DNA of 63,072 bases, counting the filler, from Kipferlia bialata (Eukaryota): the NCBI GenBank assembly GCA_003568945.1. It is 6 parts of 6 records of this genome, joined end to end, with 100 filler letters (N's around TTAATTAATTAA, not from the genome) between each part and the next. Parts side by side here need not be neighbours in the genome. Positions count along the whole stretch, not along the records: positions 45,486 to 56,743 come from BDIP01001263.1; 5 more parts are not named here. One strand, 5' to 3'. Position 1 is the first letter of the stretch. Every line of letters begins with the position of its first letter. The translations under genes were made by a program, and so were the position numbers. The notes beneath the pieces are model-generated. The model was not told the DNA's origin, did no database searches, and worked only from the letters and a program-made list of their open reading frames with translations. Positions 10,339-56,743 of the stretch are shown here, in pieces.

Positions 10339-10605
10339 ATACTCCAGTGACTATGAAATAGCGTCAGGTGGTACGTACTATTGATATCCTTCATGATGCT
10401 GCGCCTAGAAAGTTCATTCAGTCTTGAAGTCAGAGGAGAACCAAGTGGCTGTTACCCGGCTTACCTGTCTGGGATAGACCCCTATTCTAGAAACACACTG
10501 AACCCTTTGTATATTCCGGAATCAAAAAGAGAGCCATGCTGTTACCTCGGCTTGTTCACTGGGTGAGTTCACGTTGCTGGTCACGGGGAGGAGCCCCCGC
10601 ATCCA

Positions 10606-11185: not shown

Positions 11186-11228
11186 GTGGGAGTAGTAGAA
11201 GAGACTGTTTTGTATCAGGTGTTTATCC

Positions 11229-11267
<39 letters not shown>

Positions 11268-11285
11268 ACCCCCCCCCCCCCCCCC

Positions 11286-12985: not shown

Positions 12986-13031
<46 letters not shown>

Positions 13032-16000: not shown

Positions 16001-16195
16001 ATGTGGAAGAGTGATGTGATCTGCGCCTCTAAGTCTGCACTGTCCACCAGACCATCACTAGGGAGAGGGGGCTCAGTGTCACTCTCACTGCCACTGTCCT
16101 CTCTGTCTATGCTTACACTGTCCAACACCATGTCGCTGATCAGGGGCTCAACGGACTGAACCGCTGGGGGTAAGTGCTAGTGTAGGGTGTGTCAC

Positions 16196-16232
<37 letters not shown>

Positions 16233-19200
16233 TGTCGCTGATCAGGGGCTCAACGGACTGGACGGCTGGGGAGTCAGCATATAGTGACAGGTAATGTATC
16301 ACATGGAGATGTACAGTGAGAATACATATTCTATACCTGGCAATTGGTCCATGCCGGGTATGGCCAGTGGCACAAGGCACTCATCAGAGAGAGAGAGACC
16401 TGCATCAATGCAGTCAGGGGTCACAGTGTATCTGGGTTAAGAGGCGAAAATGTGTTACTGTACTGTGAATAGCGCACTGTGTATATAGATACACAAGGGG
16501 TGCTCCACTGTGTATATGTATATATGTAGGTGTTGCATCACCCACCCTGAGTCTCCTCCTCTCTTTCTACAGCCTGTAATCAGGGCTAGTGCCTCCCCCC
16601 TCTCCCCTGCACCTAATATACATATATATATACACATAAATATATATATGTAATCTGTCACTCACCCTGTGCTCACGCCTCTCTGTTGCATAATGAGTGA
16701 CAGTGCCTCCCCCCTCTCCCCTGCAGCTGTCCCCTGCTGACAGGGTGCAAAGAGACTCTCAATGGAGTGCTCGTACACATGGCTCTCCACAACACGCCTG
16801 GGGTCAGGGGGAGTATGAGTATGAGGGGTGCAACTAATTGGTACAGGTCACATATATGCAGTATTATTATCTCTATATACCTGGTTAGGGTGTGGATGGA
16901 CGTGAGTGCACTCCTGATTAATGATGTGGATCTGAATGCCCCTAGTACCGATGTGCACAGTCTAGTACACATGGCACACAGACACACAGTGCATAGCACA
17001 GTGGAGCACACATACACGGGGGAGAGGTCATCGAAGGGGAGGAGGGAGAGCACGCTGGGCACCAGCAAGGGTACTAGCACAGGAGAGAGCACTGCTATGT
17101 ACAGACAGGGCATGGCGAGGATGGAGCATGCGACACAGGCACCGAGGAGCATAGCGGAGGAGAGGTAGAGGGAGGGAGAAGCCACACCCAGGTCTGTGGT
17201 GCCAAAGATTGATAGGCACACACACACTACACTCAGGGTGTGGAGGGCGGTGTCTATCCTGGACACTGTGGCGAATAGGCCTGAGGGTCCAGTAGAGAGG
17301 GAACCCGAACTGGAGAGATCTCCAAAGAGCTGGAGGTGAGAAAACATCGCGAAAAACATCTAACTCTACACGATTAGTACCTTGCGCGTGACAGTGGAGA
17401 GAGCCTCGCGGGAGAGATCTGTCCTTGCCTCTACAAGGAGGGAGAGAGACTTTGTGTACACACTCAGAGACCAGGAGAGTAGGAAGACTGCTGCACAGGC
17501 TGCCCCTGCACATCCATATCTGACAAGGGGTGACACAACACCGGACAAGAGAGCGCAGAAGAAGAGAAGCAAAGCACACACTGCACACACACCAGTGGCT
17601 ATGTATCTGGGGAGGGGGGAGACAGGGCCGGTGAGCAGTAGGTACGTGTACTGTGGTCAACGGAGTACACACAGTACACACACACACACATATATATATA
17701 TAGAGTATATATAGAGTACCTGTGACTGGTCTATAGCACCAGAAGGTGCCAGCCAGAGTAGGACCAGTTGGGCATAGGAGAGCATGGCATGCACTACATA
17801 GGCCCATCCCCTGCTCAGTCTGCTGCGGTCGGTGTCTGTGCACCTGGGGTCAGAGACAACCATCATGAAAACTCAAATTACAATTCATTTGAGTCTACAG
17901 ATACCCCTCTCAAAGCTATATATATGAACATCAAAAGAGAGAGTTAAGTGAGTCCCACCTCTTTGCCCAGCATGTCACGGCATGCTACTCAAAATGGTGT
18001 AGATAGTTATGAGAATGAGATATGTATGAGAGTATGACACCTCTTAGAGGTGTCACACTATAGAGGTGACACTCATCTATTATATTTATATATATATATA
18101 TATATACATAATCACAGGATGTCACCTCTTCGCCCAGCATGTCACGGCATCGAGTAGACGGGTGTGGATGTCGGTGTGCTCGGTGGTGCACCTGGGGTCG
18201 GATAGTAACATCTTTATCATAGACTAATTGTCGCACAGGCCTGGAGTGTTGCATGATACCTTGTGTGCCCCGTGATGTCCCCGCTCCACTCCCTCTTGAG
18301 ACCTGAGAGTTAGGGGTCTAGACTCAAGAGAGAGAAGTGGATTACAGTAGGAGATGAAAGAAGAGAGATACTAACCCATAGAAGTGGGCAGTGCCCTCTC
18401 CTCCTCCACATCGTATGTGACAAAAAGTATATTAAGGGTATAGGAAGAGAGAGAGAGAGAGAGACCGATGCATACCCATTGCTGTAGGGAGTGCCCTCTC
18501 CTCCTCCACGTCGTATGTGTCTGAGGGGGGCAGGGAGGGGAAGCCCCCATCACTCCACGACATGGTGCCCCTGGAGTGAGAAGGGACAGAGGATATACAA
18601 GTATGTGGATAGTAATTGTATAAAATACTTGTATACATATAAATATATAGTATGACACCCACCTGGGTGCACTAGCTGCCTGGGAGGGAGAGGGAGTAGT
18701 GTCCATCATCCACTCGGCCTGGGGTGAGACACATACTATCCATATATGTGCAAGTGTGAATACAATGTGATACATGGCATTCTGTATGTACCTGGTTTGG
18801 GTATGTGTCAGTCTCTGTGAGACTCCTGGTTGGATAGTCCCTACACGGTTGTGAGTTCTGCAGACTGCTGGCAGGTCTCGAGTCGGCATAGGGGTGGCCC
18901 TTCCTGAGGGTTAGTGTCAGTGAATATACAAAATGCGAGAATAGCAGAAGAGTCACTATTATATACAAATACTAACTATATATATTAGATGCTTCGCTAC
19001 CTCTTGTGGTAAAGAGTGCCCCTGGCCAGAGAGGGGTCATATATATATATATATATATCTGAGAATATACCTCTTGTGGTAGAGAGTGCCCCTAGCCAGG
19101 GAGGGGTCCTTCAGGAAACGGGACTGGAGGTGAGAGAGGAATGGTCAACCCTAGCACGGACCAAGGAGCATACTCATAAGTGAATAGAACACATATTCGT

Positions 19201-22200
19201 ATATACCTGGGAATGCACTATAGGCACTGGAGTGTCCTCCACACTCTTGATGGATATATATATATATACTTCTTATGTATAATCTAAAGCCATGTAGATA
19301 CAAAATACCATACCTGTGCGTGTACCAGTGGTACAGGTGCAGTGAGCCCCTCTGCCTCCACACTCTTGATGGGCGCTATCAGTCTCTGCACAGTGGCTAT
19401 GCTGGTCTGGTCCAGGGTGGCAACGGAGGTGCTAAGGAGCCTACTGAACCTGGTTATCAGCACTATCAGTCTACTCTAAACAGTATATATAGATTAAGGT
19501 TATAGTGTTGTCGGTTTGTCGTACTGAGGTTCAATAATTCAATATATATAGAGACAGATAGAGAAACACTGTATAGTGCTGGTACCTGTTTGTGGCATCG
19601 TACTGCTTGGACAGGCCCAGAAGCAGTAGATCAGATCCTGAGGATACAAGGAGAGAGGACATGTCACGGACAAAGTCCTTGATTGTTAGGGATATATCGA
19701 GTAAGGAATAACCCCAGTTGTCACTGCACCACTCCACAACCTTGTTTACAACGTGATAAACTCATAACCCCCCACCTTGACCCATCCTCCGAAGTCTATG
19801 TTGACACAGTCCACGTATCTGAGGGGGGAGAGACCCTTGCCCTTCAGATACACAACCTGGGGGTGAGGTATATATACACATCAAGTATATATATCCATGT
19901 CTATAAATATATATATAGATTGATACACAAGTGTCTCTGTACCTTTGGGGGTGAAATGACAAAGCACCGCCTTGGGGGCAGGACCAGTCTCTTCTTTTGC
20001 TGTCTGGCATGCACACCCCTGCCCAGGGACTGGCCTAATGGTCAGAAAAGTGATACAATTATATATACATATATGTATAGAGAGAGAGAGAGAATAGGAG
20101 AGTACATATGTATGACATAGACACCCCCCTGCCCAGGGACTGGCCTAATAGTTAACACTATGTACTTAAATATATATACATAGAGAGAGAGAGATAGAGA
20201 ATGAGAGAGTATATAGGTCGTGTACGGACACCGCAGCCTATAGACTGGCCTGGAGGTAAAAGTGTCACTCCCGCTCTCTCCTTGTACGTACTCAGTGTCA
20301 AGTACCCCTATCTGCCAGTGTCCTGGTGGCTTGTGCCATGACAGCCACACAATCTCTCTCTCACTCTCTCCAAATATACATTCCCCTCTATATATCTATC
20401 TATAATAGACTTACCTCTATCTGCTAATGTCCTACTGGCCTCTGCCATTGCGGCATCAGCAGCAGCCTGCTCAGCCGCAGGGAGCTCAGCATACAGGACC
20501 TAAGGGTAGTTAGAGTCAGAATACCATTGCATGGTTGTACAAGTATATTTGTATATATGATACGCTGTACCTGCACCACCGCCTCTGTCACCCCTATGCC
20601 CCACTTGGGTGTGGCATACAATACCCTACTGGCTGTGTTGACAGTGTCACTCCACACGTCATAGCGGAGCATCTGATGACCTGGGATTAGAGAGTGTCAT
20701 GTTAATAAACACACATATATATATAGAAATATACATATACATTTACATATATGTACCCACCTGTAAAACCAGCTTTGAGTGAACCTGCTGCTACCCCCAC
20801 CGACAACTGTCTATGCATACACCTATATATATATACAATTCTGTATCAACACACATGTATACATAGTACCTGTCACTCCAGCCGTCAAAGACCCAGCTGC
20901 TATCCCGACTGACACACTGTCTATGCATTCTCTCTTTCTCTCTCTCTGTCTCTCTCTCTCTCTCTCTATATATATACATACACATATATATATATATATG
21001 AATATGTCTATATACGTATTACCTGTAACTCCCGCAGTCAAAGACCCAGCTGCTATCCCTACTGACACACTGTCTATGCATGGGAAGGCAGAGGGGCAGG
21101 AGGCTAGTAGCTGTAGAGTGGCCTCTCTCAGCACAAGGGAGAACTGAACGGCCTAAGTAAGAGATATAGAGTGTGTATACATATATATATAGAGAGAGAG
21201 AGGGAGAGATAGCTGCAGGGTGGCCTCTCTCAGAACAAGGGAGAACTGGACGGCCTGCGTATTAGATGCATACATATGTATTGATATGTGTGTGTAACAC
21301 GTTCATACCCTTTTCACTGCCTCCTGTGTCACGTCGTGTAAGCTACATACACATTATATGTATATATGTATATATGTATATATGTACTCATACCCTTGTC
21401 ACTGCCTCCTGCTGTGTGACATCGTCTGTCTCCTCGACAGTGGCCAGGAAGCACTGCTCCGTGGCCTGGGGGTAAGTGCCAGTATATAAACGACAAATAC
21501 AAGAGGTATCTTTCTTTACAGGAGAGGTATGATTGTAAATGTAGTGACCAGGAAGCACTGCTCCGTGGCCTCGGTGGTTAGGTAAAGCATGGACATCTAG
21601 ACATATATCTAGACATTTCCAGTATTACTAGAATATGTATCCCACCTTGAGCTTCATGACGCCCTTGGCTGCTAGGGACACCTCATCCAACAGGGCAAAG
21701 ATGCCATTGATCTAGTATGAGTGCATGTATACAGAGAGAGGAAGAATATACATAGAGAGTCATCTAAAAGGGCAAGATGCCATTGATCTGAGGTTAGAGA
21801 GTAAAGAGCAGGGGGGGGGGGGGACGAGAGGATTCCTCAGAAAGAAGTGTAGTATATTTATATATATATATATATATATATGAACATGATGTGACTATGT
21901 ATACCATTACCATTACCTGTCTAATGTACTTGTCGATGGGCACCTCCACGTTGTCCTTCAGATTGACCTGAAAGGGTAAGAGGTGAGAAAGTGAATAGGA
22001 GAGAAGTAATATATATCAAAAATACATATATACTATATATGAATAGGGCACGGGCCCCGTGACGGGGTCAGAAGAAGGAAGGTATAGTGGAAGGGGGGGG
22101 GGGGAGGGAGTATTCCTTGACAAAGACTACAGCCCCGTATATCCTAGAGCTTAACCCGCTCTTCTACATACATACGTATATATATGTATATATATAAAAG

Positions 22201-22335
22201 GAGAATGCATACCTTCACGAATACTACTGCACCATAGATTCTTGAGCTGAACCCGCTCTTTGTGATGATGGCTGTGTATGCACGGGAGGGCAGGGCATTG
22301 AAGAAGAGGGAGAGGAACATGCGCCAAAGGGCATC
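12323..22335 (-). CDS. Membrane class III adenylyl cyclase, multi-exon, 5'-truncated: cyclase domain A (~22300-19800), linker, TM bundle (~17840-16880), cyclase domain B (~15050-14150)
   Basis: Spliced domain A: GAVVFVKV...MKLKATEQCF...VSVGIAAGSLTAGVTG...RYDVWSDTVNTASR...YLKGKG. Domain B: HCDIVSFT...KLKTEGDAY...LRVAAAMAPAFGSVL...SYDLFGLAPYMAR. Most exon phases were checked by hand down to the stop at 12323. Joining A to the rest needs a 35-nt intron at 19741-19775. Confidence 0.8.
13345..13800 (-). repeat. Four intronic copies of branch point + acceptor + exon start (SAVQVMAQRL) upstream of the true exon
   Basis: Acceptors at ~13790, 13693, 13582 and 13484; the true acceptor is at ~13386. 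Variants TCC GCT / TCA GCC / TCT GCT and CGG / CGT are all synonymous. Confidence 0.95.
20760..21081 (-). repeat. True exon end (CIDSVSVGIAAGSLTAGVT + donor) plus two intronic copies
   Basis: True end 21023-21081; copy 20870-20928 with 4 differences, all at third positions; more diverged copy 20761-20818. Confidence 0.95.
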
Positions 22336-22446
22336 GCCTGAGATATGAGAGGGGAGATAGAGAGGGAGATAGAGAGAGAGGGGGAGTTAAAGAAGAGGGA
22401 GATGAACATGCGCCATAGGGCATCGCCTGAGATATGAAAGAGTGGG

Positions 22447-22885: not shown

Positions 22886-23648
22886 CGCTTGTCTCTCAAT
22901 GACAGAGGGTTGAGGCTCATCTGCTGGCTCTGCCTGTCTCTCTCTCTCTTCCTCAGTGTCTCTCCTTCCACCCCCTCTGTTGGACGTACCCAGACCTCCC
23001 GCTACCCCCATAGCCCTCATTCCACCCCTGCCTTCCATTCCACCCCTGCCTTCCATACCACCCCTCCCTTCCATTCCACCCCTGCCTCCTATGCCTCCCA
23101 TGGCTCTCATTCCACCCCTGCCTCCCATACCTCCCAGGCCGGGCCTCGGACCTGATATGAGAGTCTATGCCATCTAATGTCCGTCTATGGAACCCACATC
23201 GGCCCATACCAATGGTATGCCGTTACATATTGTGCGTACTATACATGTATATCTACCTGGGTATATATATACATGTATATCTACCTGGGTATATATATAT
23301 ATCTATATCTACCTGGGTATATATATATATCTATATCTACCTGGGTATATATCTATATCTATATCTACCTGGGTTTGCACCATATGGCAGAGGAGCCCCT
23401 AACGGAGGAGCCCCTAACGGAGGAGCCCCTATCGGAGGAACATACCCAAGTCTAGGTCCACTCGGACCGAGTCCAGCCGATTGCATGCCTGACGAGCGTT
23501 GTGAGGATGTACTGAGAATTGATTGTAGGAGAGTCTCTGTGACGAGGAGTTGAGTCACTTTCTCTACACCCTTTAGTGGACGGTCAAAAAGTGCAAATGA
23601 CGACAAGGTGCCTGTGAACCTGGGAATCATTCCCATTCTCTGGCTCAT
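22886..23648 (-). CDS. Hypothetical protein with Pro/Gly-rich and RGG-repeat low-complexity region, 3'-truncated
   Basis: ATG at 23648; GAPPL repeats; an intron starting gtagat; an exon encoding GGMGGRGGMEGRGG repeats; donor gtatgt at ~22885. Confidence 0.55.
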
Positions 23649-30441: not shown

Positions 30442-30701
30442 GATCATCATGGGTCAACGATTTCACAATAGCTGTTTACAATGCTAGGACAACACTAGCT
30501 TGTTGTCTCACAACTTATAGTCTCTTTGGTATCTAGTATCTAAGCATGTTTGGTTACGACATCCATGGTAAACGCAAGAATTATAATAGAACCGTTTCAA
30601 TGGCCCTACGCTCAATATTACAACATTTATCTACTTATTGATTCTACGTACTTACGTCACACTATTTCCACAGCGAGGAGCGTCACTACACCGACACTTG
30701 C

Positions 30702-33700
30702 TCACACAGCGGCTATCATCTTACCCACCATATTCAGGGCAGAGTCCCTACACGAACTGATGAGCTTGGCGAATGGCACCTTCTCTGCCGACCTCACTGG
30801 TCCGTAGTACACCACCGGTGTGTCCTCTATCTGCTGGTAGGTGGCCTTTCCCTGGTACATGTTCCAGTATACATCGGCCAGGGACTGGGTGAGGTCCCTC
30901 CCCATGACCTTGGAGAGTGCCTCCAGCTTCGTCTTGTACACGACAATGACCTGCACAGCACTCATGGATACACCCTCTCCCACAGCGGCCTCTATGGCAG
31001 GGCCGCTCTCTCTCAAAGGGACCTCAATACTCCCAACAACCTGCTTCTTGAGAGACCCCTGGGAGCGGGTGATGACGGCGATGGGGCCGGCGTCACTCTC
31101 GCTACCGTGTAGAAGAGCATCCACAGCGTTGAGGTGGTGGTTGGACGAGAAGACGCCGTGGCTAACGATATAGGACTTGGGGAGTGGGGCCTCTTCGGGT
31201 GCAGCGATGGGAAGAGACTTAGGGAGCAGTTCTGTAGTGTTATTTGCGATGGCCTCTTCGATGACGTCCAGCTGCTCTAGCAGCTGAGTGCAGGTGGGAC
31301 GGAGAGCAGGGTCATACTGGTGTGAATGGAAATAGTTGGATACATCCACATATATCCTCATCTATGTATGGGTGTAATATGTATATTGAGATATATTCGT
31401 ATATATTCCTCCAGCATGCTGTTGACCAGTGCCGCATAGCCTGGGGTCACAGCCTCTTTGTCTGTAAGGCGTCTGGGGTGAGAGAGACGAAGTAGCACAT
31501 ATGTACATTAGAGAGTGGTTTGATGGCTATCATAGAGTGTTTTCTCTCAATATCTGACTGCTTATCACTCCTTGTATGCCTCAGAACAGTGGCACAATAT
31601 AGTACGCACTCAACCATATATGGGCAATACATATATATAATACATTGGAACACCCACCTGACTCTCTTCCCCCCCAGAGTGCTCTTCAACTCATCCAGAG
31701 TGGAGGGACTGTTGAGCACACAGGTGGGGGTCACAAGCTAGGGTGGGTACTGAGAGACATATATACTAATATACACATATACACAAGTGTATATGTGTAT
31801 ATACATATAGATATATACCAATGGAGGTCACTAGTTAGGGTGGGTACTAAGAGATAGATAGATACAGGAGTATATGGAGGAATACACACTCACTCCCAAA
31901 CAGGTATGCCCTACCTGAGTGAGGGTGATTCCCAGGGCCCACACATCTATCCCCGTGCTGTAGTGCTGACGCAGACCACTGAACTGCTACAGGGTGAGAG
32001 GAGGGAGTAGAGGGACGTATAGAGTATATTCATGTGGACGGGTTGAACTAAATACTATACAGGACAACACCCTGGAGAACACGATGTGTACATATACTCT
32101 TCATCAAAGGGTGGTTAGACTGTTACAATATTGGAGAACAGTGACACATGATACCAACCTCTGGTGCCCTGTATAGGGGTGTGCCGGTGTCCTCTGTCTT
32201 CTTCAGGTGCTGGGGGTTAGTAAAGGAATGCATACAGACATACACATATATATACATAAATATACTATACATACATATGCATATACACCATTGCAACTAG
32301 CTGGTAGTACAATCGACTTATCAGTATCAGATGCTTCTGGATACCAGTATCTGTATCTGTAGAGTGTAGAGTGTAAACGGTTCTTTCTCTGATAGACCAG
32401 TGAAGATTCACCCATTAAATATACAAATGCATATTGTGGGTATATAGTGTTCTTAGTGTGTAAAAGCACCACCCGGTCGTCCACCTTGCACATATACACA
32501 TAGAATATCCATGCATATGTCTATACATATATATATACGCACCACCCCCTCGTCCACTCTGCACAGACCCAGATCCACAACTGTACAGTGGAGCTTATAG
32601 CGTGATATATACATGATATAATATATCTACAAACATAGTATATATACTAGAGAGTATGTATACTAACGCACCACTCCCATATCTATCTATCTATGTGCCT
32701 ATCTGTATCTATATATATATATATATATAAGCACCACTCCCTCATCTACTCTGCACAGGCCCAGATCCACAACAGTACAGTGGTGCTTACAACAAGATAT
32801 ATACATGAATATGTATATATATATACAGAGTGTATATACTAACGTACCACCCCCTCGTCCACCCTGCATAGGCCCAGATCCACAACGGTACAGTGGCGGG
32901 TCTGCTTCTCATCCTCACCCCTGTGCATCATGATGTTCTCGGGCTGGGTTAGTAATAGTGAATACGTATATATGTATATATCCACACTGATCCCTGTGCA
33001 TCATGATGTTCTCATGCTGGGGTGAGAAGAGTACTCAAGAGATACATAATAGTATATCGATATCTACGAACGATACATGAAGCAATGAGAAACAGCAACA
33101 ACACTGTGCATCATGATGATCATAGATTGGGTGCGTCAGAGTAGGGTGCCTGTGTGTGTATCACTCAATGTAGAAGATATATACACCAATGTATATAATA
33201 CACACACATATATATATCTATATCTATCTATATATACATATCTAGAGTATGTACTCACCTTGAGGTCCCTGTGTATCACGTTCCTCTCATGCAGGAACTG
33301 GAGGCCTGTCAGGATCTGAGGGTCAAAACGGAGAACAATTATATAATTAGTGTCAACTAAACACAATAGAGACACAACCCAAATACAGAAAGAGAATGAA
33401 ATGGGGAGGGGGGGAGGGAGGGGGGGGGGGACTCGCTTGCCGTACATCACGTGTTATCTTGAGTAGACCATTGAGGACCACGTCATCCTGCAGATGGGGT
33501 AAATCACCCCCTGCCCTGGAGGTGTACTGAAGCAGGTTGTTGCCTAGGATAAGACTGTAATTGTAATAATTATTAGTATATACTGCTATTATTATTATAT
33601 ACTACCACTACTTGTGTACTGAAGCTGGTCTTTGCCTGGTATCAGTCAACAACAATTATAACAATACTATATATACATATATATATATGTTTATAATACT

Positions 33701-39475: not shown

Positions 39476-39953
39476 ATACTTCCACATATTTCATCTAATC
39501 AATAGGAAGGAGAGTTGCCAGGTACCTCCGTGCCTTCCTGTCCATCAGTGACCAGATCGGGGTGCTGCTGCCACCACTGGAGCACAGAGTGCCAGGTGTG
39601 TGTTTATATATATTTGTCATATATATATATATAAATATCCGCAAATATTTCTATACCCCCCTGACCCCCCAGGCGCCAGACGCTGCCGTGCCCGATCCTT
39701 CAGAGTCACCCCAACTGCCACACACTCCATCCCACAGATAGCGTGCGTGTATATACATATATATAGTAATAAGTATACACTTAGGGTGATTAGGATGCAT
39801 TCAATAACCACGGCCACACACTCCATCCCACAGATAGCGTGCGTGTATACATATACATAGTAATAAGGATACACTTAGGGTGATAAGGATACATTAGTAT
39901 ATATATGACAATAGTTACCCACTGCCACACACTCCATCCCACAGATAGCGTAC

Positions 39954-40001
<48 letters not shown>

Positions 40002-40423
40002 TCTTACCCTAGTACTGAGGATTAGTATATATATGACAATAGTTACCCACGGCCACCCACTCCATCCCACAGATAGCGTGCGTGTTTCTATATATATAGT
40101 AATAAGTATACACTTAGGGTGATTAGGTTACATTGGTATATGTATGACAATAGTTACCCACGGCCACACACTCCATCCCACAGATAGCGTACGTATATAT
40201 ATGGTTATANNNNNNNNNNNNNNNNNNNNNNNNNNNNNNNNNNNNNNNNNNNNNNNNNNNNNNNNNNNNNNNNNNNNNNNNNNNNNGTGATTAGGATGCA
40301 TTCAATACCCACGGCCACACACTCCATCCCACAGATAGCGTGCGTTAGCTCTCTCTCGCATTCTACATGTACATGTATATCACTATATCTCCTTAACCCC
40401 GCACTGAGGTCACCATCATCAAC

Positions 40424-45485: not shown

Positions 45486-45673
45486 GCGGGAGGGGCGGCG
45501 GGGAGGGGGGGGGGGGGGGGGGGGAGAGACAGAGAGTATATCTCGTAGCAGGTATGTATATATAGGCTATATAGTACTATAGTATCAATATGAATACCTG
45601 ATAGGGTGCGATGCTGTCCTCGGGGCATGTCTTGCACTCGGTATATATACTAATGGCTATATATATATTACAA

Positions 45674-45705
<32 letters not shown>

Positions 45706-45809
45706 CATCCATACTGTACCTGGTATGGAGCAATGCTGTCCTCGGGGCATGTCTTGCACTCATATGATATGCAATATAGTATATACCTAATTATCTATAT
45801 ATATACTAC

Positions 45810-47244
45810 CTGATAGGGTGCGATGCTGTCCTCGGGGCATGTCTTGCACTCGGTGTCCTCAGCAGCGGCATAGTAGCCTAGAGAGTTAGTACCCACATTG
45901 TACACACTGAATTCATATATATATATATATGTAGAGAGTATAATAGGCAAATGAGCTGGTAACTATCATAACATCATCAGAACATTTAGCTTCTATGTAT
46001 ATATATACCATTATCCATACCCTTGGGACAGGACTGGCAGGTGTGGGTGAGCTCAGAGGGGGCAGTGCCTGGGGTCAATTAGATAGCCATCAACGAATAA
46101 TCCATAGAACAATAATGTTTATAGATGTATTAATAATAGTATTCAACCAATAATCCATATAACAATAATACTAATAAATGTATTAATATAACATGTGAGA
46201 TTCTAAATATTTTTTTGGAAATGTGAGCTCAGAGGGGGTAGTGCCTGGGGTCATTTATAATAGTATTCAACTAATAATCCATGAAACAATAATACAAATA
46301 GATGTATTTATATAATATGTGAGATTCTAAATAGTGGGTGAGCTCAGAGGGGGCAGTGCCTGGGATCAATAGAGAATAGTGAGGTATGGTATAGTATAGT
46401 GTAAACTAGATCAATGTCCTATACCTGCTGAGTATGGGGCACACAAAAAACTAAAACTATTTTGACTAAATGTTTTCTACTATTCAAATACACTATATTG
46501 CATGACAGATGCATACCTGCTGGGCATGGGACACACTCCCCCGCTGTCCTCATTAGCATATTATATATACACACTATAGGTATCTAATATAATATATATT
46601 ACACTATATTACAGTTATACTAACCTGCTGGGCATGGGACACACTCCCCCGCTGTCCTCATACCATCTGGTGTGGTATATATACACTATATATATAATAC
46701 ACCATATATAATAAAACAGTATATTACGGTTATACTTACCAGCGGGACATGGGACACACTCCCCTGCTGTCCTCATGCCATCTGGTGTGGTATCAGTGCC
46801 AGAGTCCAGGATGCGCTCGGCGTTGTCTAGGACAATAGAGACAACTAGGTATTAGGGGTGTAGAGAGAGAGAGAGAGTCAAGATGACCTCGGCATTGTCT
46901 AGCAGACAATTATACTGGAGAGGACAGTTGTAGAGTTGTACACCACCTGATACTAGTGTATCGTCTGGGTTAGTGATGTCCCCCAGCATGATGACACCAA
47001 TATATATATATATAAATATATATATATAATATACATACCATCTCTCTCTCTCTCTCTCTATCTATATATATACTATACTACCTGATACTAATGTATCGTC
47101 TGGGTTGGTGATGTCCCCCAGCATGATGACACTATATATATTTTTATATACTCTCTCTCTCTATATATATACATCACAAATACTATCATACCGGATACCA
47201 AAGTGTCGTCTGGATTAGTGATGTCCCCCAGCATGATGACACCA

Positions 47245-47279
<35 letters not shown>

Positions 47280-47395
47280 ATATACATACTATCTCTCTCC
47301 CTCTCTCTCTCTCTATATATATATACATCACATATACTATCATACCTGACACTAAGGTGTCATCTGGGTTTGTGATGTCCCCCAGCATGATGACA

Positions 47396-47432
<37 letters not shown>

Positions 47433-48349
47433 TCTCTCTCTCTCTCTATCTATACATATATATCATACCTGATACCAGTGTATCATCAGGGTTAGTGATG
47501 TCTCCTAGCATGATGACACCAATCTCCAGAAGGTGGGCACCAGCGTCATAGACAGAGGTAGTCTATTTGTGAGTATTTACATGATAATACACATCTATAC
47601 ACATATATATGTGCAATAATTATATCTAGGAGGTGGGTACCGGCATCATAGACTGAGGCAGTCTGACGGTTAGACATTGATTACTAGAGATGTATATACA
47701 TATATACTTATATAGATATGTATCATATATCAAGGAGGTGGGTACCAGCGTCATAGACTGAGGCAGTCTGAGGGTAAGACATTGATTATTAGGGATGTAT
47801 ATACATATATACTAATATATATGTATCATATATATATATATCATGGAGGTACCCGCGTCATAGACAGAGGCAGTCTGGGGGTAAGCAAGAAGACTAGGAA
47901 TAGTAACGAGATATATACCTCTGTGACCTCTCCCATCTTGTTTGAGTGAGCTGTGGCGTGTAGCATCTGCACTCCATCCACATAGGCAAACACATTGAGA
48001 CCGGCAGTGGCTGAGGTTAAGTGTCAGTATGTAATATGTACACTGTTTGTATGGTATGATCTCTGTTACCACCAGTGAATGGACAGGGTAGGTGTGGTGC
48101 ACATGTATATTCACAAAAAGACTATACACACATCAATGTATATATATATCACACCTGGCATGTCTATGGACAGTGTGAACAGTAATGGTAATATAGTTAT
48201 ATATATTTATATATGAAGCGTAAGTACTACAGTGTAGTGTATACCACATGTATATACAGTATATACCTGGCATGTCTATGGACAGTGTGAGTGAGGCCAG
48301 TGACACACTGGTCGAGAGGGGCAGGGAGAACCAGTTGTAGAGGCCTAGA

Positions 48350-48380
<31 letters not shown>

Positions 48381-48449
48381 TACACTGGTCGAGAGGGGCA
48401 GGGAGAACCAGTTGTAGAGACCTAAGGATGAGACAAATACTAATATATT

Positions 48450-48497
<48 letters not shown>

Positions 48498-51400
48498 TAG
48501 ACACTGGTGGACAGGGGCAGGGAGAACCAGTTGTAGAGGCCAAGGGGTGAGGAAAGGACAAATATAGAGGGAGATGGAGAGGGAAAGAGAGAGAGAGTTG
48601 GAGTACCAGTTGTACAGGGACATTAGGAGCATGTACATATTGAGAGGGCGGGAGGGAGAGTAAGAGAGATGGAGAGACAGAGGGAGAGAGACAGAGTACA
48701 TCTACAGGCATATATACGTTAGTTTGCAGTGCAAACTTTGCACGTTCTGTTTCAAAAATCCATATTTACACACACCTGATGACTGCAGGTACCCACTCCT
48801 CAGGGTGTCATTCATATATATACATAGATCCCCCCCCCCCCTCTCTCTCTATGTATACAATTATATACATATATGTACACATATGTATACATACCCGATG
48901 ACTGCAGGTACCCACTCCTCAGGGTGCCATACATATATACAAAGATCTCTCTCTGTATATATATACACACATATGTATATATTCATATGTATACACACCT
49001 GATGACTGCAGGTACCCACTCCTCAGGGTGTCATCGCCAATGACCCACTCAGAGCCTGGGGGGTTAGTAGGAATGGAACATGTACAGTCCGTGGTATTAG
49101 TGCTTCCGCTGTCTAAGAATGCTGGGAATGATGTATATATCCACCCCCACCCCATCTCCCTTTACATATACGTATATGTATGCATATACTTACCGAGAGG
49201 ATCGGTTGTGTTTGCGCTGCCCCCCTTCTGGGAATGTTGGGAATGAAGTATCTGCCTCCCTATATATATATATAATGTATGTATATACTAATCCAATGGA
49301 TCGGTTGTGTCTGTGCTCTATATATATATATATATATCCACTCACCAAGTGGATCAGTAGTATTGGTGCTTATCCCCTCTGGGAATGTTGGGAATGATGT
49401 ATAATCCCCCCAATATATATAAATATATACATATACATAGTATACCTAAGGGATCTGTTGTGTTTGTGCTGCCCCCCTCTGGGAATGTTGGGAATGATGC
49501 ATCTCTCTCTCTCCCTCTCTCTCTCTCTCTATATATATATATACAACACTATACTTACCCAATGGATCTGTTGTGTTTGTGCTGCCCCCCTCTGGGAATG
49601 TTGGGAATGATGCAGCTGCCTCCCTATATATATATATATAATGTATATATCCACTCACCAAGTGGATCTGTTGTGTTTGTGCTCCCCCCCTCTGGGAATG
49701 TTGGGAATGATGTGTAGGACAGGGTGGTGGCTGGGACATAGCCAGGCTGACAAGGACTACATTCCACTGCAGTGAGTATGAGTGTATAGTATATATATAT
49801 ATACACTATATATATTAGTATGAGAGGGTGGTGGCTGGGACATAGCCAGGCTGACAAGGACTGCATGCGACTGCAGTGAGAGAGAGTATAGTATACTATA
49901 TAAAGGATATTATATATATATATATATATATTAGTGTGAGATGGTGGTGGCTGGGACATAGCCAGGCTGGCAGGGGCTGCAAGCAACTGGAGAGTGAGAG
50001 TGAGTGTATAGAATATATATTAGTATAATATATATATAGGGGCTGCACTCAACTGTTGTCAGGTATATATACTTGTATAAATATGGGTACATACATATAC
50101 TATATATATAAGTATGAGAGGGTGGTGGCTGGGACATAGCCGGGCTGGCAGGGGCTACACTCAACTGAAGTAAGTGCATATGTATACAACTACAGCGTTC
50201 TTGTATATAACAATGCACTATGCATATATATAAGAAGCATCGACTGAAGGCGACTGCAGTGAAAGTAAGTATAACACTATATTACGGCATGTATCTCTGA
50301 ATCTAGATACTTGTAGATATACAGAGAGAAACATCCCCGTTCCATCACTGATGAGCCCAGCTGCACATACTGTGCACACACACAGATACATACAAATATA
50401 CAAGACATAAATACATGAATACGGCACTGCATATATATATATACCTGTGCCATCGCTGATGAGTCCTGCTGCGCATGCTGTGCACACACCACCTCCCACG
50501 TGCTCAGACCCAGGCTCGCAGCCTAGGGGGTTAGATATACTAAATGTTGACGATATAGTCACACAAATCCATGTCCAAAATTACCTGTGCCTGGCATAAT
50601 GAATACATCAATATATATACCGAAACACGCATATACCTGTGCATGGCACTGTGTATGCCTCCCCAGGCACATAGGCACCGGGGAGGGTGGCAGAGCAGAT
50701 GACTGGGGGTTAGAATTAACATACTCTACAAGGAATATATATATAGAGATATCCGTTGAATAGCAGATGATATATATACTTGAAGACCGTGTTGACACTC
50801 CACATTGTACTACCACGAACCTGGCTCTCTGAGCACGTGTATCACTGGTCTCAGAAGAGTGGTCATGTCACACTCGCCATAGCTGATAATTAGATATATA
50901 TAGAGAGAGAGAGAGAGAGAAAGAAAGAGAGACATAGAGAGAGAGAGAGAGTAAGGTGCGGTGAGGGGGGGGGGGATAGAGAGAGAGAGAGAGAGATATA
51001 CAGGGAGAGAGAGAGAGGGTAAGATGGGTGGTCATGTCACACTTGCCATAGCTGGCAATGAGGGGGGGATAGAGAGAGAGAGAGAGAGAGACATCCGAGG
51101 GTCTTGAGGGAGAGTGAGAGAGAGAGACGCATCTGATTAGTCTCTACTGTAACTGAGTATGTAGTCTCCATCTGAATACTATATATATATATAGAGAGAG
51201 AGATAGAGATAGTAATCTTCATGTACCTGAGTGTGTAGTCCCCCTCCACACAGGCCTCCATGTCCTTGCAGTGCGAGGCACCTGGGGGTTAGTTATATAT
51301 ATAAACATGTATGTACACATGTATGAAGTATGATTCATGCTAGACATATATATATATTCTTATATACACTACAGGCCTCCATGTCCTTGCAGTGCGAGGC

Positions 51401-51581
51401 ACCTGAGGGTTAGATATGTATATATATATACATTACGTATACAATATGTGTATGCATGATTCATGCTAAATATTTATACACATATACATATACATATATA
51501 TATATATTCATTACAGGACTCCATGTCCCTGCAGTGGGAGGCACCTGAGGATGAGATATGTATATATAATAATATATATAC

Positions 51582-51612
<31 letters not shown>

Positions 51613-52404
51613 TTTATATATATGTATAAATGTGTGTCTTATACACACATATTCTTATAACACAGGCCTCCTTGCAGTGCGAGGCACCTGAGGGTGAGTG
51701 ACATACGATATACAATACAACCACCTCTGAAAATAGGAGTCCAAGCATTATCTTATGGTATCCATATATACCACTATACTATGTGTGCCTGTGCAGGAGT
51801 ACTTGTTCTGCCTATATATTTAGCTGAGTTATCATTGATCTACCTTTCACACTATATATATATATATATATATATATATGAATGTGTCTCTTAGACATAT
51901 ACAATATTCATTCATATAATACACAAAATATATACAAAAACACATGTATCCCTACCTGTGAGGGAGTACTCGTTCTCTCCACAGTCAGTGGGGGCAGCAG
52001 AGCCTGGGGTTAAGAGAGAGGACGAAATGAGGAGAGCATTGCAACACTCAGCATCTAATTGTATATAATAATGGCAAAGTAATATAAAAATACTGATACT
52101 GATCTATACACTCAAAATACCTGCAGTTGACCACGTGTTGTCTGGGTTGTTGATGCAGTGGGCACCGTCGGGTATATACATGTATATATATATTATACAC
52201 TAAGCACTATCTATCTATCTATATATACATACACATACCAGCGGTAGACCACGTGTTGTCTGTGTTGTTGATGCAGTGGGCACCACTAGTATATACACAC
52301 AGTATACCATGTACAGTATATAATGTATATATGTATACACACAAAGTATATACCAGCTGTTGACCAGGTGTTGTCTGGGTTGTTGATGCAGTGGGCACCG
52401 TCGG

Positions 52405-52437
<33 letters not shown>

Positions 52438-53531
52438 CTATATACTAAGTACTATCTATCTATCTATCTATCTATCTATATATACACACTAAGTATATAC
52501 CTGCCGTTGACCACGTGTTGTCTGGGTTGTTGATGCAGTGGGCACCGTCGGGGGTGTAGTGACCGGTGGGGCACTCTGAGGATGAGATAGAGAAAGGGGG
52601 GGCGGGGGGGAGAAAGAGAGATATTGGGAGAGAGAATGACAGGTGGACAATACCTGTGCACTTGAGGTCGAAGACACTGCTCCCACTCATCTCAATCAGT
52701 CTGATGGCCACAAACTCATCAGCGGTGGCAGCCTGATATTAGAAGATAGATACGTAGAAAGATAGGCATATAGAGACGTCCATACCTCAGTGTCCTTTGA
52801 GTAACCCCACTGGATATACATGCTATACTATCTGCACCTATTTAGAACCTAATACAATCATATACATATGTATGCATACCTCAGTGTCCTATGAGTACAC
52901 CCACTGAAGGAAATTACGTATATATACACTGCCATATATATGGAGTAGCATATATTAGTATATATATACAACATACCTCAGTGTCCTTTGAGTACACCCA
53001 CTGGATGCTGTGGAGACCAGGGTCCAGAGAGGCCTCGCCAAGTCTGACTTTAAGGGTGTAGAGAGAGAGAGAGAGAAGTTCAGGGTCAAGAGAGGCCTCG
53101 CCAAGTCTGACATTAAGGGTGTAGAGAGAGAGAGAGAGAGAGAAGTCCAGGGTCCAGAGAGGCCTCGCNNNNNNNNNNNAGAGAGAGAGAGAGAGAGAAG
53201 TCCAGGGTCCAGAGAGGCCTCGCCAAGTCTGACATTAAGGGTATAGAGAGAGAGAGAGAGAGAGAGGTGCAGGGTCCAGAGAGGCCTAGCCAAGTCTGAC
53301 ATTAAGGGTGTAGACAGAGAGAGAGAGAGAGAGAGAGAGTCTCCCCATATGTTCATATACTCATATACTCATACCTCCACCCATTGTATGAGCAAGTCTC
53401 CTCGTAGAGCACAGTCTCTAAACATACTGATTCATATATACATATATATATATATACAAATGTACCTCCACCCACTGTATGAGCATGTCTCCTCATAGAG
53501 CACAGACTCTAAACATACTCATATATACTAC

Positions 53532-53575
<44 letters not shown>

Positions 53576-53765
53576 CCTCCACCCACTGTATGAGCATGTC
53601 TCCTCATAGAGAACAGTCTCCCCATCAACAATGAGGGACAGGGAGTCAAAGAGAGGCTCACCCTTGGCAACAAACCTGAATATTAGGGGTGTAGAGAGAG
53701 AGAGAGAGAGAGACAGGGAGTCAAAGAGAGGCTCACCCTTGGCCACAAACCTGAATATTTGGGGT

Positions 53766-53809
<44 letters not shown>

Positions 53810-54139
53810 GGAGTCAATGAGGGGCTCACCCTTGGCCACAAACCTAGGGTGAATGAGGGTGTAGAGAGAGAGAGACGTACTCGAATGTGACGCTGAAGTC
53901 CTTCTCGAATATGAACAAACCAATGTGAATAAGGGTGCAGCGAGAGAGAGAGAGAGAGAACGTACTCGAATGTGACGCTGGAGTCCTTCTCAAATATGAA
54001 CACTTCTGTCTCGAGGGTGGATGTGGAACCAGCCCCGGCCTGGAGGTACCCGCCCATGGGGGTCCAGAGGGTGCAGCCCTGGAGTAAGTAATAGAATAGT
54101 GCTACAGCCCTGGTAAATTAGAGTATATATATACATAGT

Positions 54140-54170
<31 letters not shown>

Positions 54171-54645
54171 CTGGAGGTACCCGCCCATGGGGGTCCAGAG
54201 GGTGCAGCCCTGGAGGTGAGATAAGTATACATACTAACTAACTAACATACTAACAGTTCCCATGTAGGTCCAGAGGGTGCGGTGTTAGGGTGAGAGAGAA
54301 TAAGAGAGGTATACTTAGGGATACGTATGTGTAGGTCAAAAATAGCATATGTAACCACACCTCTCCCGTGCATGTGCAAGATACTACAACACAATCTCTC
54401 TATGTATATATTCAAACATAACTGTAAGCAGTCATACCTCTCCCGTGCATGTTGTTGTCATCTCGGCTGGCATGTCGTCAAAGGTGGTGTAGATGGCACC
54501 ACCGCCTGGCAATGAGGGGAATTATCTATTATATATATATCATATATATAAATATATATCTCTATCTATATGAATACATATATATATAGCTGGCATGTCG
54601 TCAAAGGTGGTGTAGATGGCACCACCTCCTGATGATAGGGGTATC

Positions 54646-54676
<31 letters not shown>

Positions 54677-56419
54677 GGTGGCATGTCGTCAAAGGTGGTG
54701 TAGATGGCACCACCGCCTGGCATTAGTAAAAATCAATGATGAGTTTGATGGAGGGAGGTAATGTATACTATAGTATATATAGTATTATACACATATATGC
54801 ATGTCGTCAAAGGTGGTGTAGATGGCACCGCCACCTGATGTAAATAGTTGATACATATGATAACACTTAAGGGTAGAACGAGGTGTATTAGTACAATTGT
54901 ATCACATTGTATTATTCTATGACACCCCCGCCTGATGCTAAGGGAGCAGAGGTATACATATGAAGAAAGAGAGTATATACTGTACTCAAGCTGGTATATA
55001 AATACTTGTAGAATGTAACATATACATGCCACTGACCCATGGCGAATGTGGCCTCCTCGCATGTCACGCACTCCTCAATGGACATATCTATAAATATATA
55101 TATAATCATATATATGGTACCCACTACGTATTATATGTNNNNNNNNNNNNNNNNNNNNNNNNNNNNNNNNNNNNNNNNNNNNNNNNNNNNTGTATGTCTA
55201 ACCTATGGCGAATGTGCCCTCCTCGCATGTGACGCACTCCTCAATATATATATATATACATTGTGCATATCCATTATTAATACAATATTTATCTAATAGA
55301 ACACCCTCCTAACCTATTGCGAATGTGCCCTCCTCGCATTTCACTCATACATATATATATCATTAGTATACAATATATATTAGTATACTTTACATAAGAG
55401 ACCAGTACCTATTGCGAATGTGCCCTCCTCGCATGTCACGCACTCCTCAGCAGTCAGGTCATACTTGGTACCGGCACCACACCTGGGGGTAAGGGATGAT
55501 ATACTATGAAATCAATATAGCATTGAGGTTGGAGAGAGAGAGAAAAGCACCTGTTACCAGCACCCCACCTGAGGGTAAGGTACCCCAGAACTAACAACAC
55601 ATAGAAGTAACAACACATAGAACCTACAACACATACATGAAATAGATCATTGAGGTAATAATAATACTTGGTACCACATGAGGGTAATTATGGGATAAAA
55701 TAGAAACAATGTCAGGACCAGACAAATGGAGAGAGAGATAACCTTGAACTGAAAAGATATACATAGATACAATATAAATATATAAATAGTGTATACATAC
55801 ATATACACACCTCAGGTCGCATGGCACCATGACTCGGTCTGGGATAGATTATATATATATATGCATGATATAGATATAAATATGTATATTAGAATCACTA
55901 TGTATATGTGTATATATACCTCAGGTCACATGGCACCATGACGGGGTCTGGGATGACAATCTCCTGGGGTGAGTAAATGATAGAGAGAGAGATAGCCTAC
56001 ATGAAGCCTCGGCGTTAATATCTGTATAAATAACGGAGTATGGTAACTCAGCGTTGGTGCAGTCAGTATCAGTATCTCTATAAATACAGGTACACTCTAA
56101 AGTATATAGATACAATATATGATATACAGTATATACAGTATATATATATACATGAGTATATCATACCCACCTCAGCGTTGGTGCAGTCTGGCTCCAGGAT
56201 GAAGTAGATCAGGCTGGGGTGAGGTACTATTGGATGAATCCAAATACACATATACATGTGAACTGTTAAGAAGGTACGGGTGTGTGATGGATCATCTGAC
56301 TCCTACCGCTACTCTATATCATACAATACTATATATAGTGTACGTACCGCTCATCGAACTCACAGAATGAGAACAGGGGCACAATGTCTGAGTCATCACA
56401 CTCTAAGGGTTAGGGGTGT

Positions 56420-56458
<39 letters not shown>

Positions 56459-56690
56459 AGGGGCACAATGTCAGAGTCATCACACTCTGGAGGTTAAGGG
56501 TGTAGGGAGAGAGAGAGAGAGAGAGAGAGAGAGTAAGAGGGTACCTCTATCCACAAAGACTGTGCACACAAGATAATACTGAGGTACACAATAGAGCGTC
56601 CACAACATATATACACATAGAATAAATATATATATAGTATACCTCTAGCATCCACACGGACTGTGCACACCAGGAGCACCAGTGCTCCAC
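45810..56690 (-). CDS. ELAPOR/KIAA1324 (EIG121)-like Cys-rich membrane or secreted protein, >30 small exons, truncated by scaffold ends
   Basis: Signal-like ALVLLVCTVR; CGAGTKYDLTAEECVTCEEGTFAIGGGAIYTTFDDMP; a beta-sandwich segment (VTFEY...LIVDG...GLHSIQWVYSKD...AIRLIEMSG); repeated C..C.PG.Y Cys-rich (GCC2/GCC3-type) units; CKDMEACVEGDY. Confidence 0.7.
46947..47523 (-). repeat. True exon end VIMLGDITNPDDTLVS + donor and four intronic copies, all encoding the identical peptide
   Basis: True end 47469-47523; copies 47346-47400, 47192-47246, 47082-47132 and 46947-47001, separated by (TA)n/(GA)n tracts. Confidence 0.97.
49085..50170 (-). repeat. Nested half-exon copies around the exon at ~49659-49766: three acceptor-side and five donor-side copies
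   Basis: Acceptor-side copies read CSPCQPGYVPATT(L/I)S; donor-side copies read SFPTFPEGGS(T)NT..P with GT, and the farthest is degenerate. Confidence 0.93.
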
Positions 56691-56743
56691 TGGGGGTGAG
56701 GGGGGGGGGGGTGAGTGTATAGAGGTAGTAGGTGAATGTCAAT

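What the first reader, a model, noticed from the sequence alone, without database searches (positions are those of the whole stretch)
46947..47523. Introns archive earlier versions of their own exon ends: non-coding copies differ only at synonymous sites
Seen: on the minus strand the working exon ends GTC ATC ATG CTA GGA GAC ATC ACT AAC CCT GAT GAT ACA CTG GTA TCA G|GT. Four intronic copies follow, each with its own GT donor but no acceptor. All five encode VIMLGDITNPDDTLVS, yet pairs differ at 2-8 codons, always silently (Leu CTG/TTA/TTG/CTA, Thr ACT/ACA/ACC, Asp GAT/GAC, Asn AAC/AAT, Ser TCA/TCC). Established: a dead tandem duplicate mutates at all codon positions, so most differences should be non-synonymous. 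Inference: each copy was itself once the functional exon end and was pushed into the intron when a new version was installed. One route is one-sided strand invasion into a highly diverged allele or donor, copying into its intron and rejoining non-homologously. The copies look star-like around the farthest one rather than serial, which favours a pool of diverged alleles over stepwise error-prone resynthesis. The intron would then be an ordered record of allele replacement. I know of no description of this.
Basis: partly seen in the sequence, partly recalled or inferred. Interest (0 to 1): 0.95.

Follow-up and report, generated by a model that had tools for sequence, protein, structure and literature searches.

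The report
Introns keep other alleles' exon ends
In the free-living protist Kipferlia bialata, an intron holds four extra copies of the neighbouring exon's end that spell the same peptide with different silent letters while the assembled RNA carries only the exon's own version, and such copies, which flank most exons of the gene, are likely leftovers of other working alleles brought in by misaligned recombination, which would make one genome a record of very high hidden genetic diversity.

Summary
Five versions of VIMLGDITNPDDTLVS differ at 2-9 codons per pair (14 changes, all silent). The gene is Kipferlia bialata KIPB_005406. It has 59 such copies at 28 of 48 exon edges, with pS 0.24 and pN 0.027. 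Six other genes give 56 copies at pS 0.25 and pN 0.033. Duplicate-and-decay in one lineage is rejected. A spliced RNA contig carries the working exon's letters and skips the copies laid; DNA contigs tile the tested kilobase without differences. Copies keep good splice signals although 41% of those intron letters differ. Their rare amino-acid changes look like random decay. So the copies likely came from versions that were once working. Out-of-register exchange with diverged alleles fits better than one break per copy. No diverged allele was seen directly. The structure is known (lancelet 'mirages', avian exon stuttering); the silent bias is not discussed in the texts I searched. The scan noted this before on other pieces of this genome and in a comb jelly.

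The parts
45810..56689 (-). Host gene, 24 exons mapped: K. bialata KIPB_005406, a 574-aa partial cysteine-rich protein with an ELAPOR1-like TNFR domain; fills scaffold 45486-56743
47469..47562 (-). Working exon (94 nt, TTSVYDAGAHLLEIGVIMLGDITNPDDTLVS); its letters are the ones in the RNA contig
   Evidence: (5 differences from the farthest copy, a count only this version gives)
47346..47400 (-). Donor-side copy 1 (55 nt + GT); 9 silent differences from the exon, 0 amino-acid changes
47192..47246 (-). Donor-side copy 2 (55 nt + GT); 9 silent, 0 amino-acid changes
47082..47132 (-). Donor-side copy 3 (51 nt + GT); 7 silent, 0 amino-acid changes
46947..47001 (-). Donor-side copy 4, farthest (55 nt + GT); 5 silent, 0 amino-acid changes; followed by an intron stretch unrelated to the other spacers
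   Evidence: DNA contig with 0 differences over 46864-46999
47002..47468 (-). Four AT/AG-microsatellite spacers of 68, 99, 59 and 80 nt between the copies, alike to each other (1.5-11% substitutions, a lower bound in such simple sequence)
46870..46914 (-). Older, decayed acceptor-side copy of the next exon's start, with indels and its own acceptor (end approximate)
   Evidence: alignment by eye
46740..46844 (-). Next working exon; the RNA contig joins it directly to the exon end upstream and to exon 46068-46021 downstream
47622..47874 (-). Three acceptor-side copies of the same exon's start (at 47874, 47767, 47662), each with its own branch/AG signal; 9 silent and 5 amino-acid differences in sum
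46517..46678 (-). Two donor-side copies of exon 46844-46740 (5 and 4 silent differences, 0 amino-acid), skipped in the RNA contig and joined to the exon by overlapping DNA contigs

Best explanation
The intron holds a tandem array of units made of half an exon end, its splice donor and a short simple-sequence spacer, the assembled RNA carries the first (working) version, and the exon halves of the spare units were likely supplied by other working alleles through out-of-register homologous recombination. Shown: the array, the silent bias in this array, gene-wide and in six other genes, skipping in RNA where laid, shared truncation points, intact but different splice signals, and random-looking decay. 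Inferred: a rare founding duplication across the splice site (likely microhomology-mediated, at AT or CT runs) fixes the truncation point once. After that, the exon half is the best-conserved anchor between strongly diverged chromosomes. A homologue's working exon end would pair with a spare unit. A crossover would then move that working end plus its intron start into the intron; a conversion would overwrite only the exon half. Either way the spare unit would receive sequence already filtered by selection on the protein, and would then decay slowly. The spliceosome likely ignores spare donors and acceptors because they define no complete exon (or by first-come donor choice). This needs a pool of at least several working versions with silent divergence near 0.25, hence recombination in a very diverse population.
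For: Silent bias. 59 copies in the gene give pS 0.244 and pN 0.027; distinct codon variants are 86 silent to 32 changing, against 26% silent if neutral and 41.5% if only the working exon is protected (p 5e-12). 56 copies at 34 of 72 curated exons of six other genes give pS 0.251, pN 0.033, 83:35 (p 8e-10). Dead-dead pairs show it too: third positions 0.27/0.20, first and second 0.048/0.046. Splice signals. All 26 acceptor copies differ from the working acceptor (41% of positions -16..-3), yet score 4.3 bits against -3.8 for the same number of random changes (z 8.2) and keep a branch-like motif in 20 of 26 (5.2 expected). The 27 of 33 donor copies that differ score 0.68 against -1.53. Dead now. 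2 stops among 32 changing variants; BLOSUM -0.40 vs -0.59 random, p 0.27; GT lost in 5 of 33 and AG in 3 of 26. RNA contig spliced with the working letters. Shared truncation: 26 of 48 pairs. Mosaicism: four-gamete failures in 5 of 6 and 6 of 10 site pairs in two arrays. Precedent: crossovers concentrate in exons in hypervariable Schizophyllum (PMC4209137, abstract), with silent diversity 0.20 (PMC4576712, abstract). Metamonads lack Ku-dependent end joining and rely on homologous repair (PMC8516963, passages).
Against: No diverged working allele has been seen: the donors are inferred, not observed. The silent divergence needed (0.24 on average, about 0.35-0.6 in this array) equals or exceeds the highest within-species value I found (0.20). 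In this array the spacers differ by only 1.5-11% while the adjoining silent sites differ far more. That needs conversion limited to the exon half, an added assumption. In most other arrays the flanks are unrelated (49 of 57 donor pairs, 43 of 47 acceptor pairs), so one process must give both patterns. Amino-acid changes are not denser towards the truncated end (0.46 per 100 bp beyond 30 nt, 2.5 in the first 10 nt), which a pure crossover version predicts, though my alignment trimming biases that end. The RNA evidence is one assembled contig from one sample.
Confidence: 0.58

Rival explanations
1. One reading: every copy is this lineage's former exon end, pushed out by its own break, one-sided invasion of a diverged allele and non-homologous rejoining, so that order records age.
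For: Explains polarity, the silent bias, and intact but unrelated intron flanks. The farthest unit's intron flank is nearly always unrelated to the others (1 of 32 donor pairs homologous vs 7 of 25 other pairs). It may well be the founding event of an array.
Against: Independent breaks should give independent truncation points, but they are shared. The four spacers here are homologous. Order carries no signal, and pN barely rises with rank (0.021, 0.033, 0.032). Canonical end joining is reported absent in metamonads, leaving only alternative end joining.
Confidence: 0.13
2. The donors are not alleles of one population but diverged paralogues, homeologues of a past polyploid, or DNA from sister lineages taken up by hybridisation.
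For: Silent divergence of 0.25-0.6 with unalignable introns looks like between-species orthologues. Another RNA contig shares about 20 letters with one copy in a cysteine motif.
Against: The same ratio holds in a cyclase, a kinase, two transporters and a WD40 protein (names from motifs read by eye). Only the gene's own protein matches the exon (1 hit; 1 of 4 candidates; cluster of 1). Five versions at one site need many donors.
Confidence: 0.12
3. The copies are under selection now, because they are sometimes translated (rare or conditional splicing) or often swapped back into the working position.
For: Good splice signals; in-frame internal AG...GT mini-exons exist in several arrays, 18 nt in this one.
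Against: The one RNA contig laid has the working letters and skips all five units in the stretch laid. Silent bias extends upstream of the mini-exons. Stops and random-looking changes occur. By my own arithmetic, swap-back selection works only at a diversity so high that allele capture would already explain the data.
Confidence: 0.09
4. Error-prone resynthesis of the exon end within one lineage, with selection keeping only harmless outcomes, pushes older versions out in series.
For: Spacers are rich in slippage-type repeats. Silent differences are 1.9 times denser in the first 10 nt from the splice site (p 0.002).
Against: Needs a serial chain. Here the physical path costs 24 steps for 14 changes. 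At exon 45877-45810 the far copy equals the exon while the middle copy has 4 silent changes, which would need 4 exact reversions.
Confidence: 0.05
5. Mis-assembly: haplotypes or paralogues chained in tandem through microsatellites.
Against: Six DNA contigs of a second assembly tile 45960-46999 with 0 differences. One holds a whole exon, its spacer and part of the first copy; another holds the truncation junction of the second copy. Three versions of the finding's exon end lie on contigs of depth 359, 367 and 469, like the single contig of the next exon (403), not a fraction of it (depth is only a rough guide, and the run may be the window's own source). A microsatellite-to-mid-exon junction cannot come from chaining intact genes.
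Confidence: 0.03

Closest known systems
Lancelet 'mirages' (Adh3, globins BflGb6/BflGb9, troponin C, PGBD5); PMC3087553 (passages; supplement 4) and PMC3902484 (one passage)
   Same: Tandem copies of an exon-intron boundary, on either side; units of about 100-160 bp; cryptic splice signals that do not disturb splicing; unequal crossing-over proposed. By eye, three BflGb6 units differ from their own exon at 6 silent and 0 changing codons before the truncation, and 3 of those 6 letters equal the other haplotype's working exon (not computed).
   Different: Described for a few genes; here 28 of 48 exon edges of one gene. Lancelet units align along their intron part (81-100% identity), whereas most flanks here are unrelated yet keep splice signals. 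'Synonymous' and 'silent' occur 0 times in both main texts.
Avian 'exon stuttering' on dot chromosomes; PMC12954441 (passages)
   Same: Partial copies of the adjacent exon that start at its border (median 36 bp there, 38 here), in simple-repeat-rich introns; inaccurate meiotic strand invasion resolved as conversion is proposed as one mechanism.
   Different: 3.4% of dot-chromosome introns, GC-rich setting, up to 44 copies and kilobases long; here AT-rich spacers, 1-5 copies, most introns of affected genes. 'Synonymous' occurs 0 times in that main text. Supplements not read.
Human F7 intron 7 37-bp VNTR with 5' pseudo-sites; PMC1557585 (abstract)
   Same: First unit spans the exon-intron boundary; downstream donors are functional but stay silent because the first is chosen.
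   Different: The pseudo-sites are identical in sequence; one locus; no diverged silent variants.
Exon-focused crossing-over in hypervariable Schizophyllum commune; PMC4209137, PMC4576712 (abstracts)
   Same: Shows that in a very diverse species recombination anchors in exons, and that silent diversity of 0.20 exists.
   Different: The abstracts report no exon-end copies in introns; a population sample was in hand there and is missing here.

Membership tests
Mirage (lancelet exon-intron boundary minisatellite) | Tandem direct copies that span an exon-intron boundary | tested here: met
   4 donor-side and 3 acceptor-side copies at this exon; 59 in the gene
Mirage (lancelet exon-intron boundary minisatellite) | Minisatellite-sized units (10-160 bp reported) | tested here: met
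   periods 123, 154, 110, 135 here; 53-178 in the gene
Mirage (lancelet exon-intron boundary minisatellite) | Normal splicing is not disturbed | tested here: met
Mirage (lancelet exon-intron boundary minisatellite) | Units alike over their whole length, with concerted evolution (81-100% identity) | tested here: not met
   met for the four spacers of this array, but 49 of 57 donor-side and 43 of 47 acceptor-side flank pairs in the gene are no more alike than unrelated introns
Mirage (lancelet exon-intron boundary minisatellite) | Copy-number differences between haplotypes or cells | not testable with these tools
   only assembled contigs of one sample were available
Exon stuttering (avian) | Partial copies of the adjacent exon beginning at the exon border, in simple-repeat-rich introns | tested here: met
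   copies 15-58 nt, median 38, found by anchoring at the splice site; dinucleotide runs make up 14% of this scaffold
Exon stuttering (avian) | Strong intron length polymorphism among individuals | not testable with these tools
   no second isolate found
Exon stuttering (avian) | GC-rich chromosomal setting | tested here: not met
   scaffold GC 0.41; the GC-richest scaffold (0.59) has no such arrays
Tandem alternative (mutually exclusive) exons | Each copy is a whole exon with acceptor and donor and appears in mRNA | tested here: not met
   copies are half exons with one splice site; none seen in the RNA contig laid

The most novel reading that the evidence does not exclude
Kipferlia introns are a genome-wide fossil sample of the species' own alleles: recombination between individuals so diverged that only exons still pair keeps depositing working exon ends, with their splice signals, beside exons. 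One clonal genome then records silent diversity of 0.25 or more, at or above the eukaryotic record, and cryptic sex in a free-living relative of Giardia; the same unnoticed signal may lie in lancelet mirages.
Probability: 0.35. Interest if true: 0.88.

Novelty: new variant of a known kind. Interest (0 to 1): 0.68.

Why it matters
If the copies are other alleles, a single genome would give a direct, testable estimate of past diversity and recombination in a protist group where sex is argued mostly from gene inventories (recalled). It would also give a mechanism for mirages and exon stuttering, whose origin both source papers call unclear, and explain why some Kipferlia introns are long. Thousands of spare donors and acceptors that score as well as the real ones are a natural test set for how a reduced fornicate spliceosome picks sites. 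In practice these copies mislead gene finders: my own simple predictor called in-frame mini-exons inside them.

Tried and rejected
No whole genome is held, so no genome-wide count was possible. No RNA holder is listed as such; run X2 is only guessed to be RNA, but its contig is spliced at GT-AG and the joints are absent from X1. No second allele appeared in the kilobase laid: exon 46844-46740 is covered by one DNA and one RNA contig with no other letters. Contigs drop variants, so this shows neither homozygosity nor its opposite. Searches for other Kipferlia strains found none. With P0122 in metagenome contigs, 33 pattern hits and 0 confirmed. With the tRNA-guanine transglycosylase exon, 80 loci kept of 355 relatives, best 56% identity, none used. 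With the kinase's last exon, 0 of 217 candidates. Tested and not found: an age order along arrays, a rise of pN with rank, a correlation of pS with pN (rho 0.07), a clear GC direction (27 vs 37), and conservative amino-acid changes. Rejected: micro-exon use of the internal 18-nt AG...GT, since the RNA contig runs 53 letters into the exon end with the working pattern. Rejected: removal of exon end plus spacer as an intron between direct repeats, since no AG|GT register fits (by eye). Literature: 9 of 10 searches used; by listing and abstract starts none describes silent-biased exon-end copies or such copies in Kipferlia. Parts 1-3 of 6 of the genome paper do not mention them; parts 4-6 were not read. 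The library lacks most subscription papers, including the original Adh3 mirage papers as far as these searches showed. The lancelet alignment was read by eye only; no dN/dS was computed on it.

Full report
Setting. The window is a chain of size-sorted scaffolds joined by N-linkers (lengths 11285, 11279, 11262, 11259, 11258 and a cut one). A tRNA-guanine transglycosylase exon has its best named hits in Dysnectes, Giardia muris and Carpediemonas. An exon of the gene in question matches one protein, KIPB_005406 of Kipferlia bialata, whose contig has the length of scaffold 45486-56743. The protein (574 aa, partial) has an ELAPOR1-like TNFR domain above Pfam's cut-off and maps to 24 GT-AG exons. 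The genome paper describes a short-read assembly, diploid by k-mers, with 124,912 introns; parts 1-3 of 6, which I read, do not mention exon-end copies (PMC5874029).

The observation. Five versions of the last 49 nt of exon 47562-47469 lie in tandem, all encoding VIMLGDITNPDDTLVS and all followed by GT. Pairs differ at 2-9 codons, always silently. At least 14 changes are needed, 11 of them among the four intronic copies. Chance would make 28% of changes silent (p about 1e-6 for 11 of 11). A simulation in which only the working copy is protected kept the peptide in 0 of 90,615 runs with 10 or more changes.

It is not a single case. Anchoring gapless alignments at each splice site finds 59 copies at 28 of 48 exon edges, in 20 of 24 exons: 33 after donors and 26 before acceptors, 15-58 nt long, about half an exon. 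Copies with indels are missed by this method. With 4 nt trimmed from the free end, pS is 0.244 and pN 0.027. Distinct codon variants are 86 silent to 32 changing, against 26% expected if neutral and 41.5% under duplicate-and-decay (p 5e-12). For six other genes I curated 72 exons from a simple gene predictor trained partly on this gene, dropping predicted mini-exons that were themselves copies and exons I did not trust. 34 of the 72 have copies, 56 in all, with pS 0.251 and pN 0.033. Frames in the sixth gene are less sure; without it the result is 58:26, p 6e-7. The first scaffold, GC 0.59 with short introns, has no arrays.

Real DNA, not in the mRNA. I laid the contigs of two public runs on 45960-46999, which holds the farthest copy, two exons, two donor-side and two acceptor-side copies, and one decayed copy. 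Six DNA contigs tile it with 0 differences at depth 367-413. One holds exon 46844-46740 with its spacer and part of the first copy. Two more DNA contigs fit the farthest copy's place with 5 and 6 differences at depth 359 and 469. These counts match the working exon and copy 1 or 2. A 2,546-letter contig of the second run is spliced at both introns and differs from the farthest copy at 5 of 53 letters, a count that only the working exon gives (others 6, 6, 3, 0). No other contig of that run covers the copy's upstream part.

The copies look once-working and now dead. The intron letters -16..-3 before acceptor-side copies differ from the working acceptor at 41% of positions. Yet they score 4.3 bits on a matrix from the gene's other acceptors, against 2.7 for the working sites and -3.8 for random changes, and 20 of 26 keep a branch-like motif (5.2 expected). 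Donor letters +3..+6 behave the same way, more weakly. Beyond the signals, 49 of 57 and 43 of 47 flank pairs are no more alike than unrelated introns, though flanks of one array are on average somewhat more alike than chance. The amino-acid-changing differences are not conservative (p 0.27) and include 2 stops in 32; 8 of 59 copies have lost GT or AG. This is what coding sequence from another working version looks like after a short time without selection.

Truncation points are shared within arrays: 26 of 48 pairs lie within 4 nt, 10.9 expected when lengths are shuffled among arrays (p 2e-4; the null ignores exon length and microhomology hot spots). In this array three copies start at the same letter and the four spacers align with 1.5-11% substitutions, while the intron after the farthest copy is unrelated. 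Physical order is no shorter a path than random order (mean mid-rank 0.45, 14 arrays). At the last exon the far copy equals the exon while the middle one has four silent changes. Four-gamete failures show mosaics or repeat mutation. So arrays seem to be founded once and then expanded and overwritten, not built by one break per copy, and they are no ordered record.

Mechanism. I commit to out-of-register homologous exchange with diverged working alleles (0.58). Steps shown: geometry, bias, skipping, shared junction, signals, decay. Steps inferred: a founding duplication; pairing of a homologue's exon end with a spare unit; crossover (moves exon end plus intron start, giving unrelated flanks with good signals) or conversion (overwrites the exon half only, giving alike spacers as here). 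By inference, two long-lived haplotypes in an asexual cell cannot supply five mutually silent versions; a recombining population or several lineages are needed. Schizophyllum shows both exon-focused crossing-over and silent diversity of 0.20 (abstracts). Metamonads lack Ku70/80 and fornicates use Dmc1 in place of Rad51A (PMC8516963, passages). The weak point is plain: I saw no diverged allele and found no second strain.

Comparison with what is known. The architecture is that of lancelet mirages (PMC3087553, PMC3902484), avian exon stuttering (PMC12954441) and the human F7 VNTR (PMC1557585, abstract). I was led to these papers by earlier notes of the scan and checked them. It works like a mirage but fails one defining feature, likeness of whole units, so I file it as a variant. 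The three main texts searched for 'synonymous' have 0 occurrences. In the published BflGb6 alignment, read by eye, three units differ from their exon at 6 silent and 0 changing codons, and 3 of the 6 letters match the other haplotype's working exon; other units there carry amino-acid changes and indels. That hints that the bias is wider than Kipferlia and unremarked, but retained ancestral letters could also explain it. Nine searches found no description of the silent bias; the library is incomplete. The scan's earlier notes report the same pattern on other pieces of this genome and in a comb jelly; they are leads, not support.

Verdict. Real, far beyond chance, pervasive, and most likely an archive of other working versions of the exon. 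Structure known, evolutionary signature apparently undescribed, donor pool unproven. Interest 0.68.

Noticed in passing
window 47346-47363, 47192-47209, 47082-47099, 46947-46964 (minus): All four copies read CCA-GA at Pro-Asp and so hold an internal acceptor-like ..AAYCCAG (a perfect CTAACCCAG in the farthest) 18 nt before the donor. The working exon reads CCT and lacks it, and its true acceptor is one of the weakest in the gene (-5.6 bits). The silent change may remove a cryptic splice site.
   Followed up: partly
window 1-11285 against 11386-56743: Two kinds of scaffold: the first is GC 0.59 with short introns, 0.4% dinucleotide runs and no exon-end arrays; the others are GC 0.41-0.47 with 4-14% dinucleotide runs and many arrays. 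The genome seems to have compartments.
   Followed up: partly
window 45486-56743, all arrays: Silent differences are 1.9 times denser in the first 10 nt from the splice site than further in (50 in 590 bp vs 69 in 1456 bp), often as runs of 3-6 neighbouring codons.
   Followed up: partly
window 56549-56670 (minus): Copy of the first exon's end with an in-frame 3-nt deletion and one codon change; missed by the gapless search.
   Followed up: no
window 46520-46539: A different RNA contig shares about 20 letters with the copy's version of a cysteine motif and then runs on unlike: probably another cysteine-repeat gene.
   Followed up: no
window 46844-46880, 53043-53300, 53675-53800, 56402-56520 (minus): Many unrelated introns end in (CT)n-ACACCC-YTAA..AG, a recurring 3' motif longer than a branch point; the acceptor copy at 51051 shares 14 letters with the working acceptor at 54505.
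   Followed up: no
window 46129-46333: The two acceptor-side units upstream of exon 46068 share about 80 nt of purely intronic sequence with each other, while the working acceptor's flank differs.
   Followed up: no
window 39714-40357 (plus): Five donor-side copies of one exon end, four of which have lost the GT: an older or homogenised array.
   Followed up: partly
window 12327-22337 (minus) and 30700-33500 (minus): An adenylate/guanylate-cyclase-like gene (32 exons curated) and a protein kinase gene, named from motifs by eye; both carry silent-biased copies, e.g. 7 silent and 0 changing differences at 32731.
   Followed up: partly
window 23018-23439: Short tandem repeats of 18, 28 and 15 bp near a scaffold start, with no link to exons seen.
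   Followed up: no
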